A stretch of 64,000 nt of DNA from positions 1 through 64,000 of the IMG/VR virus record IMGVR_UViG_3300044742_000232; one strand, written 5' to 3'. A model generated the notes under the pieces. That model ran no database searches and had not been told where the DNA came from. It saw only the letters and a program-made list of their open reading frames with translations. A program made the position numbers and the translations under genes. Shown here piece after piece: positions 14,584-33,350 of the stretch. Position 1 is the first letter of the stretch; every line of letters starts with the position of its first letter. Origin of the DNA: a virus.

Positions 14584-15016
14584 AATTTGGGGCTGCCAAC
14601 TCTTTTGTCATTAATATCCAATCGCCATGAAATCCAACCGGGAGAAATCCACGTTTCTGAAAAAGTTCATTCTCTTTCGTCATCAACATAACGAAAGTTC
14701 CCCCTAATTTCTTAATTTCTTCCAAACGTTTTTCTGTGAGAAGACGTGCAATACCTTTATTTCTTTCCTCCTTGTCAACAACGCATCCATTTAGCTCATA
14801 AACGCCATGCAAAATGTGGCTCTGTATAAAGCCAGCAAATCCAATGACAAACTTCATTTTATCTACTGCCACATAATATTCTGGCTTCCAAGAAGAGTTG
14901 TCAAATGTCGTGTTTACTTCAGCGAAGATTCTATCTGCTACGTCCGTGCCCCATTCATTATAGAGCAAACGATAGATATCAGGAGTATCAATGATCTGTG
15001 CTTTTCGGATGATCAT
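14570..15016 (-). CDS. GNAT acetyltransferase
   Basis: VVDKEERNKGIARLL motif A, FQKRGF. Confidence 0.85.
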   Translation of the reverse strand: MIIRKAQIIDTPDIYRLLYNEWGTDVADRIFAEVNTTFDNSSWKPEYYVAVDKMKFVIGFAGFIQSHILHGVYELNGCVVDKEERNKGIARLLTEKRLEEIKKLGGTFVMLMTKENELFQKRGFLPVGFHGDWILMTKELAAPNFENV

Positions 15017-15654
15017 GTTTTCACTCCATTCTTAATGACTTTACTTGCAAACCAATGTTTTTGTTGGTCACTGACATGGTTTGACCGCACCCACTTAGCA
15101 CAATGACAGTGGAAGGTGTCAAGATAAATTTCGTCTGTCCTACGAACAACAAAGCCTTCCTGAGTCTTTAGATTTAGCTTAGCTGCAACTGACGTTAGAG
15201 CCTCAAAAGAAAAAGGGCCGCGATAAAGAACAGGAACAAGGGCAAATTCATGCTCTGTGCAATATTTTACTGTGTCATCCCAAGAAAAACACTCATTTTC
15301 TTTCCAGACAGAATGGACATAAAAATAGGACACCAAATCCTTGTAATGGATTGTGTGTTGAGCATACATATTTTCTCCGCAAACACGGATATCTTTTTCA
15401 ATCACTGATCTTTTCTTTGCCCAAAAAGCTGCCATCCAATCGCGGGATTCGTGCTTTCTGATGCCATTGATAGAACGAGCGTGCCAGTGATCACTATAGA
15501 GTGTCGTGTTCTCTCCATCCATTTTTTCAGTGCAAACAATTTCTTCTGAACGAAGATTATCAATGTCTATGAGTTTTTCATCATCATAGGCATAACCTGG
15601 AGAAAAGGGGAGATGTGGAGTTCTGGGATATTTCACACTGCTCATGTTTATCAT
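15013..15654 (-). CDS. ATP-dependent RNA ligase family protein
   Basis: KYPRTPHLPFSPG, adenylation motif TEKMDGEN, GEN, EGFVVR, AKWVR. Confidence 0.85.
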   Translation of the reverse strand: MINMSSVKYPRTPHLPFSPGYAYDDEKLIDIDNLRSEEIVCTEKMDGENTTLYSDHWHARSINGIRKHESRDWMAAFWAKKRSVIEKDIRVCGENMYAQHTIHYKDLVSYFYVHSVWKENECFSWDDTVKYCTEHEFALVPVLYRGPFSFEALTSVAAKLNLKTQEGFVVRRTDEIYLDTFHCHCAKWVRSNHVSDQQKHWFASKVIKNGVKT

Positions 15655-16226: not shown

Positions 16227-17651
16227 TTATTCCAAATTGTATCTATCAACCAGCAAAGTTTTTAGCATGATCTGATAGGGACTAAAAGCTTCCATATCAG
16301 CTGCCAGAACGGATTTCAGAATAGAAGGTGAAAATCCGCTCACTAGGGCTGTGCCATTAGCATCAAACTTCACCGGAACGTTGTCATAAGAATTGATGTT
16401 CCAGAAAGTTACTTTTGGCATTTTGTAACCAGCCTCGGTATATTTGCGATCAATCATCTCAATCGCAGAGTCATCATGCCGCACACAATGATCAAATTGC
16501 ATGTCCGACAGGATTAGAAGCATCTCAGGCATTTCTTCCTGAGGCACACGACCTTGAACAGCAGTTTGGAGAATCTTATCCAAAGCCGCATGTAGATTGG
16601 TGTTCATCTCCCATTTGGACTTCACCATCTGATCAATCTTCTGGAGGATATTACCCTTCAGATTGAGCAACTGAGGAACAGCAGAGAAAGTCAAGAACGT
16701 ATCCTTGAACTTACCCTTGTTCTTATCAGCGCAATAAAGACCAAGTGAAACCGCAACCTCAATAGCCGTAAGGCCAGACTTGCTCACTGGCGAAGTCATA
16801 GAGCCTGAAACGTCCACAAGAGGAAGAACGCTGACATCACCCATATAGTTGGGCAGTGCTTCCCATTGAGCCTGGATTAGGTTGTTCTCGGTTGAACCAT
16901 ACATAACTCCATAGGGAGAAATCTTACCCTTCAGAACGTCATAGGGATAAACAGCACCCGAATTGACTTTGACACCAACAGCGCGCTCTTCCTGTGGCTT
17001 CATTAGCTCCGCTACATACTCCGCATACTTTGGAGTATGACGAAAGAATGCTTTTTTGTAACGTGCCGCAGCAACAGAAGGCACATGAGAGAAATTGATA
17101 TTATCCCAATCTTTTGCGCACATCTGAGTTTCAACCACGCGCGTTAGCTCAACTAGAAGCTTGCGGTAGTATTTTGGGCTCACGCCAAGAAACTGCCGTA
17201 GCTCTTCCGCGTTGGGGCCTTTGCGGGGCATCCACTTGGCGCACAGACCGTTGCCACTAGCTAGAGCCTCCGACATGAGCGCAAAGGCTGCTTGGCGCAC
17301 CTCGGACGTTTCCAGGGCGAACAGATCGTCCCAGCGGCCAAGCTCTGGAGTCTTGGGAATGAGCTTTAGAACAGCGTCCCGGTCATTCTTCTCAAGGTAT
17401 TTGAGCAGATCACGGAATATCTGACGCTCACCGGCACCGCCACGGATATCACGCACCCATTGCGCAATTCTCAAAGCAATGTCGCGATCTTCAGCCATCG
17501 CAGCAGCAAAGGCCGGAACCACGTCTTTGCCCCTGGAAGCACCAATCTTGAAGAAAAGATCAACACAAGGATTTGCAGTAGATTTACGCGCCTTCATAAA
17601 GTTTTCAGTGCGCGCCTCTTGATTCAATACAGCATTCACAAACGTAGTCAT
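16227..17651 (-). CDS. DUF2828/TROVE(Ro60)-like helical-repeat plus vWA protein
   Basis: RDIRGGAGER, GRWDDL, AKWMPR, C-terminal MIDAS DVSGSM, LSDMQFD, FWN, VSGFSP. Start set at MTTF behind a GAAAGGA RBS. Confidence 0.85.
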   Translation of the reverse strand: MTTFVNAVLNQEARTENFMKARKSTANPCVDLFFKIGASRGKDVVPAFAAAMAEDRDIALRIAQWVRDIRGGAGERQIFRDLLKYLEKNDRDAVLKLIPKTPELGRWDDLFALETSEVRQAAFALMSEALASGNGLCAKWMPRKGPNAEELRQFLGVSPKYYRKLLVELTRVVETQMCAKDWDNINFSHVPSVAAARYKKAFFRHTPKYAEYVAELMKPQEERAVGVKVNSGAVYPYDVLKGKISPYGVMYGSTENNLIQAQWEALPNYMGDVSVLPLVDVSGSMTSPVSKSGLTAIEVAVSLGLYCADKNKGKFKDTFLTFSAVPQLLNLKGNILQKIDQMVKSKWEMNTNLHAALDKILQTAVQGRVPQEEMPEMLLILSDMQFDHCVRHDDSAIEMIDRKYTEAGYKMPKVTFWNINSYDNVPVKFDANGTALVSGFSPSILKSVLAADMEAFSPYQIMLKTLLVDRYNLE

Positions 17652-17678
17652 TGTCAGTATCCTTTCGTTTTTATACAC

Positions 17679-17794
17679 ACAGAATGAAAAAATTCAAGGT
17701 TGTATTTTTATATACCCCTTGTTTGTGGAATTGAACCACTAATCTCCCGGTTAGGGAAGATATTTACCATTTTTGTTTTGCGGAACTCATTCTA
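17679..17794 (-). ncRNA. Array unit 7: structured RNA with tRNA-like T-arm
   Basis: Stem AGAATGAG/TTCATTCT, TTCCGCAA motif, internal TGGTA and GTGG-TTCAATT-CCAC. Confidence 0.7.
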
Positions 17795-17801
17795 AAATCT
17801 T

Positions 17802-17874
17802 ACAGTATCACATCTTACTACCGATTTCAAGTCAGTTGTCTTGTTAAGACTTTTATGTTGCGGAAGTGATACTA
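17802..17874 (-). ncRNA. Array unit 6: structured RNA with Ser(UGA)-like anticodon stem-loop
   Basis: Stem AGTATCAC/GTGATACT, TTCCGCAA, ACTGA-CTTGAAA-TCGGT. Confidence 0.75.
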
Positions 17875-17883
17875 AAAAATAAC

Positions 17884-17976
17884 ACTGGTTGCCGGCGACT
17901 TTACGCTATCTTTCATCAGTTTGAATGGCACCCGAAGGCACCTTTGATTTGGTTTTGGTTTGCAGAAGGCAGCCAT
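17884..17976 (-). ncRNA. Array unit 5: structured RNA with cUUCGg hairpin
   Basis: Stem TGGCTGCC/GGCAACCA (with one C-A mismatch on this strand), TTCTGCAA, GGTGCC-TTCG-GGTGCC. Confidence 0.65.
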
Positions 17977-17988
17977 AAACTTTTAGAA

Positions 17989-18159
17989 ACAGATTGTCTT
18001 TTTTTACTTGCGGTCGGCGCATTGCTCCTTTTTACGGGAACCGCTCGCCCCACCCTTTCACCATCACCTGTGAAAGCGTCATCAAAATACTCCGTGAAGA
18101 GGTCTTCTACCTTAGGACCGTTATTTTTCAAAAACTTTTTAGTTGCTGAAAACAATCTA
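17989..18159 (-). ncRNA. Array unit 4: structured RNA with long multi-hairpin insert
   Basis: Stem AGATTGTT/GACAATCT, TTCAGCAA, internal CTTTCAC/GTGAAAG and GCGGT/ACCGC stems. Confidence 0.7.
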
Positions 18160-18172
18160 AAAAAGGTATATA

Positions 18173-18268
18173 TCAGCATCATATAAGTTGCCGATTTGAA
18201 CGGCTCCTTCTGATTAAAAGTCAGATGCTCTACCATTGAGCTAGTTTTTGTTTGCGGAAATGATGCTA
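18173..18268 (-). ncRNA. Array unit 3: structured RNA with tRNA-Lys(UUU)-like D, anticodon and T arms but no acceptor stem or CCA
   Basis: Stem AGCATCAT/ATGATGCT, TTCCGCAA, GCTC-AATGGTA-GAGC, TCTGA-CTTTTAA-TCAGA, GCCG-TTCAAAT-CGGC. Confidence 0.8.
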
Positions 18269-18273
18269 AATTC

Positions 18274-18281
18274 TATTTATA
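18274..18281 (-). promoter_or_regulatory. Possible late promoter TATAAATA inside the RNA array
   Basis: Exact T4 late consensus 5 nt upstream of unit 3. Confidence 0.45.
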
Positions 18282-18284
18282 TCA

Positions 18285-18343
18285 ACTGGATAACTTTTTT
18301 GCTAATGTTCGCAGCATTATTTTTGGTTGCTGAAATTATCCAA
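18285..18343 (-). ncRNA. Array unit 2: structured RNA with Arg(GCG)-like anticodon stem-loop
   Basis: Stem TGGATAAT/GTTATCCA, TTCAGCAA, TAATG-CTGCGAA-CATTA. Confidence 0.75.
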
Positions 18344-18348
18344 AATTC

Positions 18349-18407
18349 ACTGGTTGGGGTTTTACTATTATTACCAAATAATATTTTGTGCTGCTGTAGC
18401 CAACCAA
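18349..18407 (-). ncRNA. Array unit 1: structured RNA with imperfect anticodon-like hairpin
   Basis: Stem TGGTTGG/CCAACCA, TACAGCAG, TATTA-TTTGGTAA-TAATA. Confidence 0.65.
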
Positions 18408-18503
18408 GCTCTCATAATCTAACTTCTATATCGTTGTTTGTTACTCCAATAAGGAAATCAATTTAGATTGGCTTGATGACAAGTGAAGAACCAATCTGAC
18501 AAT

Positions 18504-18532
18504 AGGATACTATAGGCTAAAGGGAATGTCAA
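18504..18532 (-). promoter_or_regulatory. Sigma70-type promoter upstream of the RNA array/DUF2828 operon
   Basis: TTGACA-17 nt-TATCCT. Confidence 0.75.
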
Positions 18533-18550: not shown

Positions 18551-19579
18551 TCAATTATTGACACCAGCCCAATATAACACGCGCGTCCCACTCTTCACCT
18601 TGCGGTTTGTGGACGTGGACTGAATGAATATGTCATAATCCCCATGGTCGCCGGGAATGAGCTTCACATTACCAAACTCAGGCAAACCGAGAAGTGATCG
18701 CGTTCCAGCCCCAGAATAAACCTTTTGTGTGGTCTTATTCTGAATACAGATTCTCTTATAATCTTGAACATTACTCTCAGTCTTTGACAACTCATAGAAA
18801 GCGCAACCTTTCTTATAAATTCCAATCTTATTCATGCAAAACTCAAAGATTTCTTTATCATGATCCTTGGAACCGACTTTCAAAAGTTGCACATCCTTAG
18901 TGATATCTTGAGCCACCTTTGCAACTGTGCTTGGTTTCACATCAGCTAGGTTGCTATAGAATGCTCTTGTGCTCTTCACACCTCGGGAGCGGGCTTCATA
19001 AAAGTCCTGAGTAGCAGCCATTGTAGTATAGGTGGCAGCTTCCATACCTTCTTCAGTTTGATCCCATTCCAGAATATTTCCTTCAGGAATTCCAAACTTC
19101 GCTAGGATTCTTTTCTGGCCTCTTGGAACGCGAAAAACAAAAGTCCAACGATCTGTGGCTTGAAGTTTGCGAATTTTTTCTCCTAGAATATAACCACTAA
19201 TCTTGGAAGAATTCTCTTCTCCATCAGTAATGATATTGAGAAGAAATATTACTTCTGGATCGTTTGCATCAGGTGCATCTTGTAGAATAGAAATAAGCTC
19301 ATTCACACTATCAAACAATGGCGTGGAATATCCATCTGTGATATATGAACGTTCTGGAATTGGTTGAAGAGCTACGATACTTGAATTGATCGTTTCTCTT
19401 TCAACTCTTCCTTGAGAACCAACACCACACTTGACTGTGCTAACGATTGTGTCTTGATTATTTTTGGACGCCGCTTCTTTGATAGCAGCAATCATATCAT
19501 TGTAATCTCTAGCTGCCGCTTTGGCTAGATGTGTCATAGAACGGCTGTGATCACGGCTAAAGCCTATGTAATTTTTCAT
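18551..19579 (-). CDS. vWA domain protein
   Basis: MIDAS DHSRSM, TPLFD, IITDGEENSS. Confidence 0.85.
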   Translation of the reverse strand: MKNYIGFSRDHSRSMTHLAKAAARDYNDMIAAIKEAASKNNQDTIVSTVKCGVGSQGRVERETINSSIVALQPIPERSYITDGYSTPLFDSVNELISILQDAPDANDPEVIFLLNIITDGEENSSKISGYILGEKIRKLQATDRWTFVFRVPRGQKRILAKFGIPEGNILEWDQTEEGMEAATYTTMAATQDFYEARSRGVKSTRAFYSNLADVKPSTVAKVAQDITKDVQLLKVGSKDHDKEIFEFCMNKIGIYKKGCAFYELSKTESNVQDYKRICIQNKTTQKVYSGAGTRSLLGLPEFGNVKLIPGDHGDYDIFIQSTSTNRKVKSGTRVLYWAGVNN

Positions 19580-33270: not shown

Positions 33271-33350
33271 TGGTTGCGGGCCTCGGAGTTTGCACCGAGT
33301 TGCCTTCGGGTATGAACCGAAGTAAGATCACTAGCTACCTTCCACCCGCC
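33271..33350 (-). tRNA. tRNA-Met(CAT), initiator-like and atypical
   Basis: GGCGGGT/GCCCGCA acceptor with a 1:72 mismatch, TTCGG-TTCATAC-CCGAA anticodon arm, CTCGG-TGCAAACT-CCGAG T arm, encoded ACCA. Confidence 0.8.

What the first reader, a model, noticed from the sequence alone, without database searches (positions are those of the whole stretch)
17820..18319. Array cargo includes tRNA anticodon arms (Lys-UUU, Ser-UGA, Arg-GCG): possible decoys for anticodon nucleases
Seen: unit 3 has a D arm (18227-18241), the anticodon arm TCTGA-CTTTTAA-TCAGA (18209-18225) and a T arm (18190-18204), but no acceptor stem or CCA. Unit 6 has ACTGA-CTTGAAA-TCGGT (17820-17836) and unit 2 has TAATG-CTGCGAA-CATTA (18303-18319). 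All three are canonical 5 bp stems with 7 nt CU-NNN-AA loops. Unit 1 has an imperfect TTTGGTAA loop and unit 7 a T arm. Established: PrrC cuts tRNA-Lys(UUU), and other defence toxins cleave specific anticodon loops. The tRNA mimic in bacterial YrlA keeps the D, T and acceptor arms and lacks the anticodon arm, the opposite of this topology. Inference: non-chargeable anticodon decoys or substrates displayed on a Ro-like scaffold to absorb host tRNases or modification enzymes. GCG may mimic ICG.
Basis: partly seen in the sequence, partly recalled or inferred. Interest (0 to 1): 0.88.

Follow-up and report, generated by a model that had tools for sequence, protein, structure and literature searches.

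The report
Anticodon arms on phage Y-like RNAs
A T4-like phage carries a row of small RNA genes beside a Ro60-like protein gene; they share one docking "handle" and display copies of tRNA anticodon arms, probably as baits in the phage-host fight over tRNAs.

Summary
On the minus strand, 18410-17677, seven stem-closed units lie upstream of a DUF2828/DUF7788 gene. Six share the motif UUCNGCAA.

- Unit 3 is a tRNA body without an acceptor stem: D arm, Lys-UUU anticodon arm and T arm (Rfam tRNA 47.1 bits, model positions 8-63 of 71).
- Unit 6 carries a Ser-UGA anticodon arm.
- Unit 2 (GCG) is doubtful.

Chance does not explain it. The 64-kb window has 6 such hairpins on both strands, and 3 lie in the 734-nt array (P about 9e-7).

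Among 145 unique cargos from related loci, found with a handle-only model, 37 carry a 5-bp stem with a CU-NNN-AA loop. Shuffles give 0.55.

The anticodons vary. In the closest relative, unit 3 is nearly unchanged outside the anticodon arm, but that arm is UAU instead of UUU. Unit 6 there reads ACG instead of UGA.

I read the array as partner RNAs of a Ro60-like protein, a variant of YrlA-type Y RNAs, that display anticodon arms. The decoy role is plausible but untested.

I found no paper describing it. Earlier notes of this scan report the same pairing on other DNA.

The parts
18504..18532 (-). Promoter-like site TTGACA-17-TATCCT ahead of the array
   Evidence: 10 of 12 matches, though the region's count of such sites (4) is not above shuffles (2.9). 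The same hexamers and spacing are present in the relative L085 (read by eye).
18347..18410 (-). Unit 1: closing stem UUGGUUGG/CCAACCAG, degenerate handle CUACAGCAGCA, hairpin with the 8-nt loop UUUGGUAA
   Evidence: CM R1 30.6 bits, E = 4.6e-5. The fold is not better than shuffles, z = 0.26.
18283..18346 (-). Unit 2: handle UUUCAGCAA, cargo UAAUG-CUGCGAA-CAUUA (18319-18303). The anticodon-like arm is doubtful.
   Evidence: CM R1 58.4 bits. The minimum-energy fold prefers another pairing. The loop is not conserved in L085.
18171..18271 (-). Unit 3: handle UUCCGCAA plus a tRNA body without an acceptor stem. D arm 18241-18227, anticodon arm UCUGA-CUUUUAA-UCAGA 18225-18209, T arm 18204-18190.
   Evidence: Rfam RF00005 47.1 bits, model 8-63 of 71. 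Fold z = -3.19. The arm is swapped in L085.
17987..18162 (-). Unit 4: handle UUUCAGCAA plus a cargo of about 145 nt, structured, of unknown kind
   Evidence: Fold z = -2.25. Nearly identical in L085. Lies on contigs of three RNA libraries. No Rfam family matches.
17885..17979 (-). Unit 5: handle UUCUGCAA, closing stem with one mismatch, cargo with a UUCG-capped hairpin
   Evidence: Motif match. The fold has the closing stem, z = -0.85. Conserved in L085. Not found by R1 or by the handle HMM.
17800..17877 (-). Unit 6: handle UUCCGCAA, a small hairpin, then anticodon arm ACUGA-CUUGAAA-UCGGU (17836-17820)
   Evidence: CM R1 42.8 bits. Fold z = -2.38. The arm is replaced by ACGUUU-CUACGAA-AAACGU in L085.
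17677..17797 (-). Unit 7: handle UUCCGCAA, a hairpin, a T arm (17739-17725) and a capped stem. It ends about 25 nt before the start codon.
   Evidence: CM R1 22.3 bits. Fold z = -2.42. The T arm covaries in L005 (read by eye).
16227..17651 (-). DUF2828/DUF7788 protein (phrog_850 'RNA-binding protein'), the presumed Ro60-like partner
   Evidence: Pfam PF25043 E = 1.3e-47 and PF11443 E = 5.1e-22. Weak vWA_Ro60 match, E = 0.12. Full-length homologue of Mycobacterium phage LeBron gp53, annotated 'Ro-like RNA binding protein'.
15013..15654 (-). RNA ligase gene. This is context only and not a conserved neighbour.
   Evidence: PF09414 E = 6.6e-29. Shared with 1 of 85 related loci.

Best explanation
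The 0.73-kb stretch encodes seven small RNAs, probably made from one promoter together with the downstream gene. Each unit has a closing stem of its 5' and 3' ends. Next to it lies an asymmetric A-rich internal loop that carries the conserved motif UUCNGCAA (the 'handle'), followed by a variable cargo.

By analogy with Ro60 and Y RNAs, the handle is the docking site for the DUF2828/DUF7788 protein encoded downstream. This step is inferred, not shown.

The cargo is often part of a tRNA. Here it is a D-anticodon-T body (unit 3) and a lone anticodon arm (unit 6). In relatives it can also be a YrlA-like body (T arm, capped acceptor, D arm) or a complete circularly permuted tRNA look-alike.

The anticodon arms keep the canonical loop frame CU-NNN-AA, while the three middle bases change between phages. 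So the RNA-protein particle presents anticodon loops as baits to proteins that read them. The most likely readers are host tRNA-cleaving defence nucleases, which would be trapped or diverted. The existence and conservation of the display are shown.
For: Handle and stems:
- The motif occurs 6 times in the window, all in the array, against 0.55 expected; 0 of 100 shuffles reach 6.
- In 42 aligned units the 8-bp closing stem is 96.7% paired, and 5 pairs change on both sides. The cargo hairpin has changes on both sides in all 5 pairs. The covariation score is 0.348 against 0.121 in shuffles (0 of 500 reach it) and at most 0.076 when the partners are slid.
- 185 of 186 covariance-model hits in 84 related loci lie on the gene's strand. 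The handle-only HMM gives 198 hits on the gene strand and 6 on the other.

Anticodon display:
- 37 strict loops in 145 unique cargos found with the handle alone, against 0.55 +/- 0.74 in shuffles, maximum 4 of 300.
- 3 of the window's 6 such hairpins lie in the array.

Variation:
- Unit 3 of the window and of L085 differ at 7 of 17 arm positions and at 2 of 79 elsewhere, Fisher p = 4.8e-5. All stem changes are compensatory and the anticodon goes from UUU to UAU.
- Unit 6 goes from UGA to ACG with a new stem.
- 3 of 20 close unit pairs differ in anticodon.
- Contigs of three RNA libraries carry the same seven differences from the window's unit 3 arm.

Context:
- In relatives the gene sits inside large tRNA clusters: 234 Rfam tRNA hits in 20 loci and 716 free tRNAs in 84 loci.
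- The homologue LeBron gp53, annotated 'Ro-like', has a YrlA-like RNA beside it at 39.8 bits.

Literature, passages read:
- Y RNAs dock Ro60 by a stem plus a motif and carry tRNA-like modules (PMC4201824; PMC12135203).
- A Ro60-like protein of a Felixounavirus counters a defence system (PMC11482910).
Against: - No experiment bears on binding, cleavage or protection.
- 108 of 145 unique cargos have no strict anticodon-type loop, so any function cannot rest on anticodon arms alone.
- The arms' stems are not copies of the phages' own tRNA anticodon stems. The smallest distance is 2-8 of 17 letters.
- The RNAs may lack the base modifications that some anticodon nucleases need (recalled, not tested).
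- Some enrichment could be inherited if the cargos descend from tRNA genes.
- Unit 2 is doubtful.
- The protein matches neither Pfam TROVE nor any solved structure by sequence. Its fold could not be predicted here.
- Bas63 gp130 works when expressed alone, against a system not known to cut tRNA. I did not verify that gp130 belongs to this family.
- The RNA ligase neighbour is found in 1 of 85 loci.
- The host is unknown, and the record is about half a genome.
Confidence: 0.4

Rival explanations
1. Tether rather than decoy. As in the Ro60-Y RNA-PNPase particle, the tRNA-like modules recruit tRNA-handling enzymes (repair ligase or kinase, modification enzymes, RNase P or Z, CCA-adding enzyme) or damaged tRNAs to the Ro-like ring. 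The particle would then inspect, repair or degrade tRNAs during infection.
For: - Y RNAs tether Ro60 to PNPase, and YrlA is a substrate of tRNA enzymes (PMC4201824). A phage Ro60 forms such a complex with host PNPase (PMC12135203).
- Here an RNA ligase lies two genes downstream.
- Relatives place the gene inside tRNA clusters.
- Many cargos are whole tRNA bodies rather than anticodon arms.
Against: - The ligase linkage is found in 1 of 85 loci.
- Lone anticodon hairpins with changing anticodons are not what a general tether would need.
- The arm swap in an otherwise near-identical unit points to specificity for particular anticodons.
Confidence: 0.25
2. The displayed anticodons capture specific RNAs by base pairing, for example loop-loop pairing with tRNAs of complementary anticodon or with short codon-like sites. 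The Ro-like protein is brought to those RNAs in this way.
For: The loop frame that forms the U-turn is kept, while the three exposed bases vary. That is the pattern expected of a pairing surface.
Against: - No complementary partner was sought or found.
- Three base pairs give little specificity.
- There is no precedent in the Ro60 literature that I read.
Confidence: 0.08
3. The array is mainly a cis-acting leader. The structured units stabilise or regulate the DUF2828 messenger (for example by autoregulatory binding next to the ribosome site), and the anticodon-like loops are simply stable hairpins inherited from tRNA genes.
For: - In most relatives the last unit ends 10-25 nt before the ribosome-binding site.
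- No terminator-like site on the minus strand separates the array from the gene.
Against: - Units also lie downstream of the gene and scattered among tRNA genes, for example L014 5783-6507, L004 5432 and L023 1924.
- The loop frame is conserved far above chance, with covarying stems.
Confidence: 0.1
4. Decayed tRNA genes: remnants of a tRNA cluster with no function of their own.
For: - Relatives have large tRNA clusters at this position.
- The D arm of unit 3 is identical to real tRNAs of many organisms (short contigs at 18209-18244).
Against: - The shared handle is conserved.
- The stems covary.
- Nearly all hits lie on the gene strand.
- The pairing recurs in distant phages.
- Compensatory changes keep the swapped arms paired.
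Confidence: 0.05

Closest known systems
Bacterial and phage Ro60 (Rsr) with YrlA-type Y RNAs (Chen et al. 2014, PMC4201824; Rfam RF02553)
   Same: - Small RNAs are encoded next to, and on the strand of, a Ro-like protein gene.
- The 5' and 3' ends form a stem beside an internal loop with a short conserved motif.
- The cargo mimics tRNA.
- In relatives some units have the YrlA order (T arm, capped acceptor, D arm) and reach 39.3 bits on RF02553 (L048). A unit beside LeBron gp53 reaches 39.8 bits.
   Different: - The protein is DUF2828/DUF7788 and is not matched by Pfam TROVE.
- The motif is UUCNGCAA, not GNCGAAN0-1G.
- There is no RF02553 match at E <= 10 in the window's array, and the matches in relatives are below the gathering score of 69.
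- Here there are seven tandem units.
- Cargos include lone anticodon arms, a D-anticodon-T body without an acceptor stem, and complete permuted tRNA look-alikes. The passages of the paper that I read describe none of these.
Thermus phage phiLo Ro60 with Yrl1/Yrl2 (PMC12135203)
   Same: - A phage-encoded Ro60-type protein has Y-like RNAs encoded just upstream.
- The RNAs have a stem-bulge-stem layout with a short motif in the bulge.
- The authors propose a role in escaping host defence (passages read).
   Different: - phiLo Ro60 is a recognisable Ro60 with a solved ring structure and a CGAA motif.
- It has two RNAs.
- No anticodon display is mentioned in the passages I read.
Bas63 gp130, a Ro60-like counter-defence protein of a Felixounavirus (PhageMaP preprint, PMC11482910)
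   Same: - It is a Ro60-like phage protein beside genes annotated as tRNAs, and the authors suspect some of these are Y RNAs.
- It has a counter-defence phenotype.
- Phages of E. coli and Salmonella with genomes of about 86-88 kb carry full-length homologues of the window's protein, about 37% identical. Calling these Felix O1-type is my recollection, not a tool result.
   Different: - I could not confirm that gp130 itself is the homologue.
- gp130 acts when expressed alone.
- The system it counters (Ppl) is not known to cut tRNA.
- The partner RNAs were not characterised.
Phage tRNAs that rescue infection from tRNA-cutting defences (PARIS, retron Eco7/PtuAB, Septu; PMC11555353, 10.1101/2024.01.02.573894, PMC13096335; seen as search listings and abstracts only)
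   Same: Phage-encoded RNAs with particular anticodons that answer host nucleases aimed at particular tRNAs.
   Different: Those are complete tRNAs that can be charged and replace the cut ones. The RNAs here lack an acceptor end and cannot be charged, so they could act only as baits, inhibitors or adapters.

Membership tests
Ro60/Y RNA particle, YrlA type (Rfam RF02553) | RNA gene lies next to, and on the strand of, a Ro60-family (TROVE + vWA) protein gene | tested here: inconclusive
   Adjacency and strand are met: 185 of 186 model hits lie on the gene strand. The protein, however, is DUF2828/DUF7788. TROVE PF05731 gives no match and vWA_Ro60 only E = 0.12. Homologues are annotated 'Ro-like RNA binding protein'.
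Ro60/Y RNA particle, YrlA type (Rfam RF02553) | 5' and 3' ends pair into a stem that adjoins an internal loop | tested here: met
   The 8-bp closing stem is 96.7% paired with covariation. Folds of units 2-7 show the stem.
Ro60/Y RNA particle, YrlA type (Rfam RF02553) | Conserved Ro-binding motif GNCGAAN0-1G (CGAA) near the 5' strand | tested here: not met
   The conserved motif here is UUCNGCAA, with invariant C15, G17, C18 and A19 in alignment A1. The motif of the known family is quoted from PMC4201824.
Ro60/Y RNA particle, YrlA type (Rfam RF02553) | tRNA-like domain made of T arm, capped acceptor stem and D arm, with the anticodon stem replaced by the Ro-binding stem | tested here: not met
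   In the window, unit 3 has the D arm, anticodon arm and T arm but no acceptor. No RF02553 match at E <= 10. Some relatives' units do have the YrlA layout (L048 at 39.3 bits, below the gathering score of 69).
Ro60/Y RNA particle, YrlA type (Rfam RF02553) | The RNA is bound by the Ro protein | not testable with these tools
   Needs pull-down, CLIP or gel shift.
tRNA (Rfam RF00005) | Complete cloverleaf with an acceptor stem and a 3' end that can be charged | tested here: not met
   The match covers model positions 8-63 of 71 only. ARAGORN finds no tRNA in the array. The handle's closing stem stands where the acceptor stem would be, set apart by about 18 unpaired bases on the 5' side.
Decoy or bait for anticodon nucleases (functional class) | Displays a canonical anticodon stem-loop (5 bp, 7-nt loop, pyrimidine-U at 32-33, purine at 37) | tested here: met
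   Units 3 and 6. Family-wide, 37 against 0.55 expected.
Decoy or bait for anticodon nucleases (functional class) | Is bound or cut by a host anticodon nuclease and protects the phage | not testable with these tools
Dictyostelium Class I RNA (Rfam RF01414) | Reaches the family's gathering score | tested here: not met
17.7 bits, E = 1.4 against a gathering score of 41.5, on L048. No match at E <= 10 in the window's array.

The most novel reading that the evidence does not exclude
A re-targetable RNA bait library. The phage's Ro60-like particle carries exchangeable anticodon-arm cassettes, and swapping a cassette (UUU to UAU, UGA to ACG) re-aims the particle at whichever tRNA-specific nuclease the current host uses. 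If so, the set of displayed anticodons in a phage would reflect the tRNA-cutting defences it has met. This would be an RNA-based counter-defence whose specificity evolves by cassette exchange.
Probability: 0.22. Interest if true: 0.9.

Novelty: new variant of a known kind. Interest (0 to 1): 0.72.

Why it matters
Ro60 and its Y RNAs are conserved from bacteria to humans, yet what the tRNA-like part of bacterial Y RNAs is for remains open.

This phage family offers a sharper handle on the question:
- The protein partner is very widespread. It occurs in 711 phage records, and all 8000 candidate proteins that were scored matched.
- The RNAs are modular.
- In some units the displayed part is cut down to a bare anticodon arm whose three reading bases change between close relatives.

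That makes a concrete, testable prediction: the particle meets proteins that read anticodon loops. It also links the locus to tRNA-cutting phage defences such as PARIS, retrons, Septu and PrrC.

If the bait idea is right, the displayed anticodons could be used to predict which host tRNases a phage resists, and the handle could serve to present chosen RNA baits. If it is wrong, the family is still an undescribed branch of Y-like RNAs, with cultured phages carrying the same gene family in which to study it.

Tried and rejected
- A first unit finder, based on the core motif plus any complementary 7-10-mer within 500 nt, was too permissive: 831 units on the gene strand against 521 on the reverse strand. 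I dropped it for a covariance model and a handle-only HMM.
- Even the later search for the 3' partner strand was loose at 7 of 8 pairs. A decoy strand found a partner in 98 of 203 cases. I therefore counted only the 166 units with 8 of 8 pairs, which gave 145 unique cargos. The 35 units with 7 of 8 pairs and 21 duplicates were left out.
- The count made on model-R1 units (48 against 0.34) is biased, because R1 contains an anticodon-like loop. I rely instead.
- The PDB profile search with 16 family members found nothing below E = 0.8.
- Pfam TROVE does not match in the record.
- The RNA ligase, GNAT and small-gene neighbours are not conserved, so I dropped 'conserved repair operon' as an argument.
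- Anticodon preferences of the units against free phage tRNAs with the same loop frame were: UGA 6 of 28 against 5 of 199, p = 0.0006; UGU, UCU and UUU p = 0.02-0.05. These are suggestive only, because the sequences are related and many tests were made.
- The parts of the array without cover in the RNA-library contigs (units 1-2 and 7) say nothing, since the relative differs there. The contigs also cannot show transcription, ends or strand.
- Small shares of words in sediment and groundwater runs were not used to name a habitat.
- The accession guess for Bas63 was wrong: MZ501111 is Bas51. So gp130's membership in the family is unverified.
- Supplementary tables of PMC4201824, which list its 22 phages, are closed. 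They may include relatives of this family, which bears on the novelty claim.
Full report
WHAT IS THERE. All genes around the finding run on the minus strand. Between a 342-aa ORF (18551-19579) and a DUF2828/DUF7788 gene (16227-17651; PF25043 E = 1.3e-47, PF11443 E = 5.1e-22; phrog_850 'RNA-binding protein') lie about 900 nt without a convincing ORF. Read on the minus strand, this stretch holds seven units built alike. Each has a variable closing stem formed by its two ends. After the 5' strand comes a conserved single-stranded motif (UUCCGCAA, UUCAGCAA or UUCUGCAA) followed by a run of A. Then come a variable cargo, a short A-rich 3' linker and the 3' strand of the stem. The motif TTYNGCAANNNAAAA occurs 6 times in the 64-kb window, all inside the array. 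Shuffles give 0.55, and 0 of 100 reach 6. The first unit has a degenerate motif. A promoter-like TTGACA-17-TATCCT lies upstream at 18532-18504. It recurs in the closest relative. I saw no terminator-like site on the minus strand before the gene.

THE OBSERVATION. Rfam's tRNA model matches 18243..18190 (-) at 47.1 bits over model positions 8-63 of 71. That covers the D arm, anticodon arm (loop CUUUUAA), variable region and T arm, with no acceptor stem. ARAGORN finds only one tRNA in the window, tRNA-Met at 33271-33350. It finds the same single tRNA in the whole 90,474-nt record, which CheckV rates as 49% complete. Unit 6 folds into a small hairpin plus ACUGA-CUUGAAA-UCGGU, z = -2.38. Unit 7 has a T arm, GUGG-UUCAAUU-CCAC. 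Unit 2's UAAUG-CUGCGAA-CAUUA is in the sequence, but its minimum-energy fold pairs the handle with the cargo instead. Hairpins with a 5-bp stem and a CTNNNAA loop number only 6 in the whole window on both strands. Three lie in the 734-nt array, against 0.017 expected (P = 8.5e-7).

THE FAMILY. tblastn finds the protein in 711 phage records, 707 of them at 80% coverage or more. All 8000 candidate proteins that the protein search scored matched it. In IMG/VR, 455 of 465 candidate stretches encode a relative, and I kept the best 80 loci (62-87% identity). Nearly all carry the same kind of unit just upstream of the gene.

I aligned 40 gene-proximal short units with two window units (A1). The 8-bp closing stem is 96.7% paired, and 5 pairs change on both sides. 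The 5-bp cargo hairpin has changes on both sides in all 5 pairs. The covariation score is 0.348, against 0.121 in shuffles (0 of 500 reach it) and at most 0.076 when the partners are slid by 1-3 columns.

A covariance model built from A1 (R1) finds six units in the window, all in the array, plus one weak match elsewhere at E = 7. In 84 loci it gives 186 matches at E <= 1, and 185 lie on the gene's strand. These include a unit in Synechococcus phage BUCT-ZZ01 (L001) and one in Ralstonia phage RSP15 (L004). There is none in KVP40 (L003) or Cronobacter phage S13 (L002).

In relatives the gene sits inside a large tRNA cluster. There are 234 Rfam tRNA matches in 20 loci. ARAGORN finds 721 tRNAs in 84 loci, 716 of them free on the gene strand and 5 inside units.

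R1 contains an anticodon-like loop, so I re-found units with an HMM of the 22-nt handle alone. This gave 198 hits on the gene strand and 6 on the other strand in the loci, and 5 in the window's array. I then located each 3' strand by complementarity (201 of 203 found, 166 with 8 of 8 pairs).

In the 145 unique cargos with 8 of 8 pairs:
- 37 hairpins have 5 bp and a CTNNNAA loop, against 0.55 +/- 0.74 in 300 dinucleotide shuffles (maximum 4).
- T-loop hairpins number 22 against 0.19.
- 7-nt loops in general number 150 against 58.8.

The anticodons are UGU 9, UGA 8, UUU 6, UCU 4, UAU, GUA and CAU 2 each, and GUU, GGA, GCG and GAA 1 each. So homologous arrays are strongly enriched and the anticodons vary. 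The test could have refuted the reading and did not.

Two cautions apply. The sequences are related, so the counts are not independent events. And 108 of 145 cargos have no such loop.

The arms are not copies of the phages' own tRNA anticodon arms. The smallest distance to any free tRNA arm with the same anticodon is 2-8 of 17 letters. The loop frame is what is kept.

OTHER CARGO KINDS. Relatives carry YrlA-like bodies with a T arm, capped acceptor and D arm. L048 1220-1337 scores 39.3 bits on Rfam YrlA, below the gathering score of 69. Others carry complete circularly permuted tRNA look-alikes: anticodon arm, T arm, capped acceptor and D arm inside the closing stem (L006 z = -4.12, L008 z = -3.19). 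Others again carry D-anticodon-T bodies like unit 3. L051 has the same UUU arm as the window. The window's unit 4 holds a structured module of about 145 nt and unknown kind.

THE CLOSEST RELATIVE. L085 has the 342-aa ORF at 79% identity. It comes from the same sample as L005, whose DUF2828 is 87% identical. It carries the orthologous array.
- Unit 3 is almost the same letter for letter, except in the anticodon arm: UCUGA-CUUUUAA-UCAGA becomes UCACU-CUUAUAA-AGUGA. That is 7 differences in 17 arm positions against 2 in 79 elsewhere (Fisher p = 4.8e-5). Every stem change is compensated, and the anticodon changes from UUU to UAU. It folds the same way.
- Unit 6 keeps its handle and first hairpin, but the arm becomes ACGUUU-CUACGAA-AAACGU, changing UGA to ACG.
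- Unit 2's loop becomes an 8-nt non-canonical loop.
- Among 20 pairs of units whose flanks are 85% identical or more, 3 differ in anticodon.

This pattern, a fixed frame with changing reading bases, is the strongest sign that the anticodon itself matters.

EXPRESSION. Contigs of three metatranscriptome libraries from three studies (X16, X17, X20) cover units 3-5 at about 90-95% likeness. They carry the same seven differences in the unit 3 arm as L085. These are assembled contigs from RNA libraries. They show presence, not transcription, ends or strand. I count this as a weak hint only.

THE PROTEIN. By sequence it matches no solved structure and not Pfam TROVE. There are weak matches to VWA_2 (E = 0.052) and vWA_Ro60 (E = 0.12) at residues 279-349. 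It aligns over its full length with Mycobacterium phage LeBron gp53, annotated 'Ro-like RNA binding protein' (E = 2e-55). That protein is also DUF2828 + DUF7788 and has a YrlA-like RNA just downstream (39.8 bits). The Ro60 likeness therefore rests on annotation, on this transitive link and on papers. It does not rest on a fold test made here.

COMPARISON WITH WHAT IS KNOWN.
- Chen et al. 2014 (PMC4201824, passages read) found YrlA RNAs next to TROVE proteins in 254 bacteria and 22 phages. They have a GNCGAAN0-1G motif and a tRNA-like domain that lacks the anticodon arm.
- The phiLo study (PMC12135203, passages read) shows a phage Ro60 binding two upstream Y-like RNAs with a CGAA bulge.
- Iyer et al. 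2021 (PMC7824862, passage read) note ROT/TROVE proteins in jumbo phages.
- The PhageMaP preprint (PMC11482910, passages read) finds that the Ro60-like gp130 of Bas63 counters the Ppl system, even when expressed alone. It guesses that neighbouring 'tRNA' genes are Y RNAs.

In my searches, no passage, abstract or listing that I saw describes this handle, arrays of such units, lone anticodon arms as cargo, or arm swapping. The supplements of PMC4201824 were closed, so an earlier listing of some member phage cannot be excluded.

Earlier AI notes of this scan report the same protein-handle pairing, and anticodon-arm cargos, on many other genomes. I treated them as leads. One lead, likeness to Dictyostelium Class I RNA, did not reach significance here (17.7 bits, E = 1.4).

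VERDICT. The array is real and conserved. It is best filed as a new variant of the Ro60/Y RNA kind. It works like a YrlA-type Y RNA system, but it fails the family's motif test and Rfam threshold, and in this window it fails the cargo layout as well.

The anticodon display is genuine for units 3 and 6. It is a family trait, and it changes between close relatives. That it acts as a decoy or trap for anticodon nucleases is the reading I favour (0.4). It is inference only. A tether for tRNA-handling enzymes (0.25) is the main rival.

Noticed in passing
window 17987-18162 (-); L085 5430-5600: Unit 4 carries a structured cargo of about 145 nt and unknown kind. It is almost identical in the closest relative and lies on contigs of three RNA libraries. 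No Rfam family matches it.
   Followed up: partly
L085 5610-5685 and 5885-6235: The relative has an extra stem-loop without a handle between units 4 and 5, and an extra 116-aa ORF between units 6 and 7. An RNA-library contig shows the same 82-letter insertion at window 17979/17987.
   Followed up: no
L006 2858-2981; L008 2788-2911: Complete circularly permuted tRNA look-alikes sit inside a handle stem. Each has an anticodon arm, T arm, acceptor stem closed by a tetraloop, and D arm. The opening lies between the D arm and the anticodon arm.
   Followed up: partly
whole record G000 (90,474 nt); loci L001-L084: Relatives hold on average more than 8 tRNA genes per 7-kb locus around the DUF2828 gene, all on its strand. 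This record has a single tRNA (Met), but it is only about half a genome.
   Followed up: partly
L087 3044-3152 (Mycobacterium phage LeBron): A YrlA-like RNA (RF02553, 39.8 bits, below the gathering score) lies just downstream of gp53. That protein is annotated 'Ro-like RNA binding protein' but is a DUF2828/DUF7788 protein by Pfam. The handle there looks different from UUCNGCAA.
   Followed up: partly
window 18551-19579 (-): The 342-aa ORF just upstream of the array has no Pfam match and belongs to phrog_26613. It recurs next to the array in L085 and also in Synechococcus phage BUCT-ZZ01 (L001). I did not test that.
   Followed up: no
window 18209-18244 (-): The D arm and the adjoining part of unit 3 match short contigs from many unrelated organisms' tRNAs in every run laid. 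This segment is therefore indistinguishable from a real tRNA.
   Followed up: no
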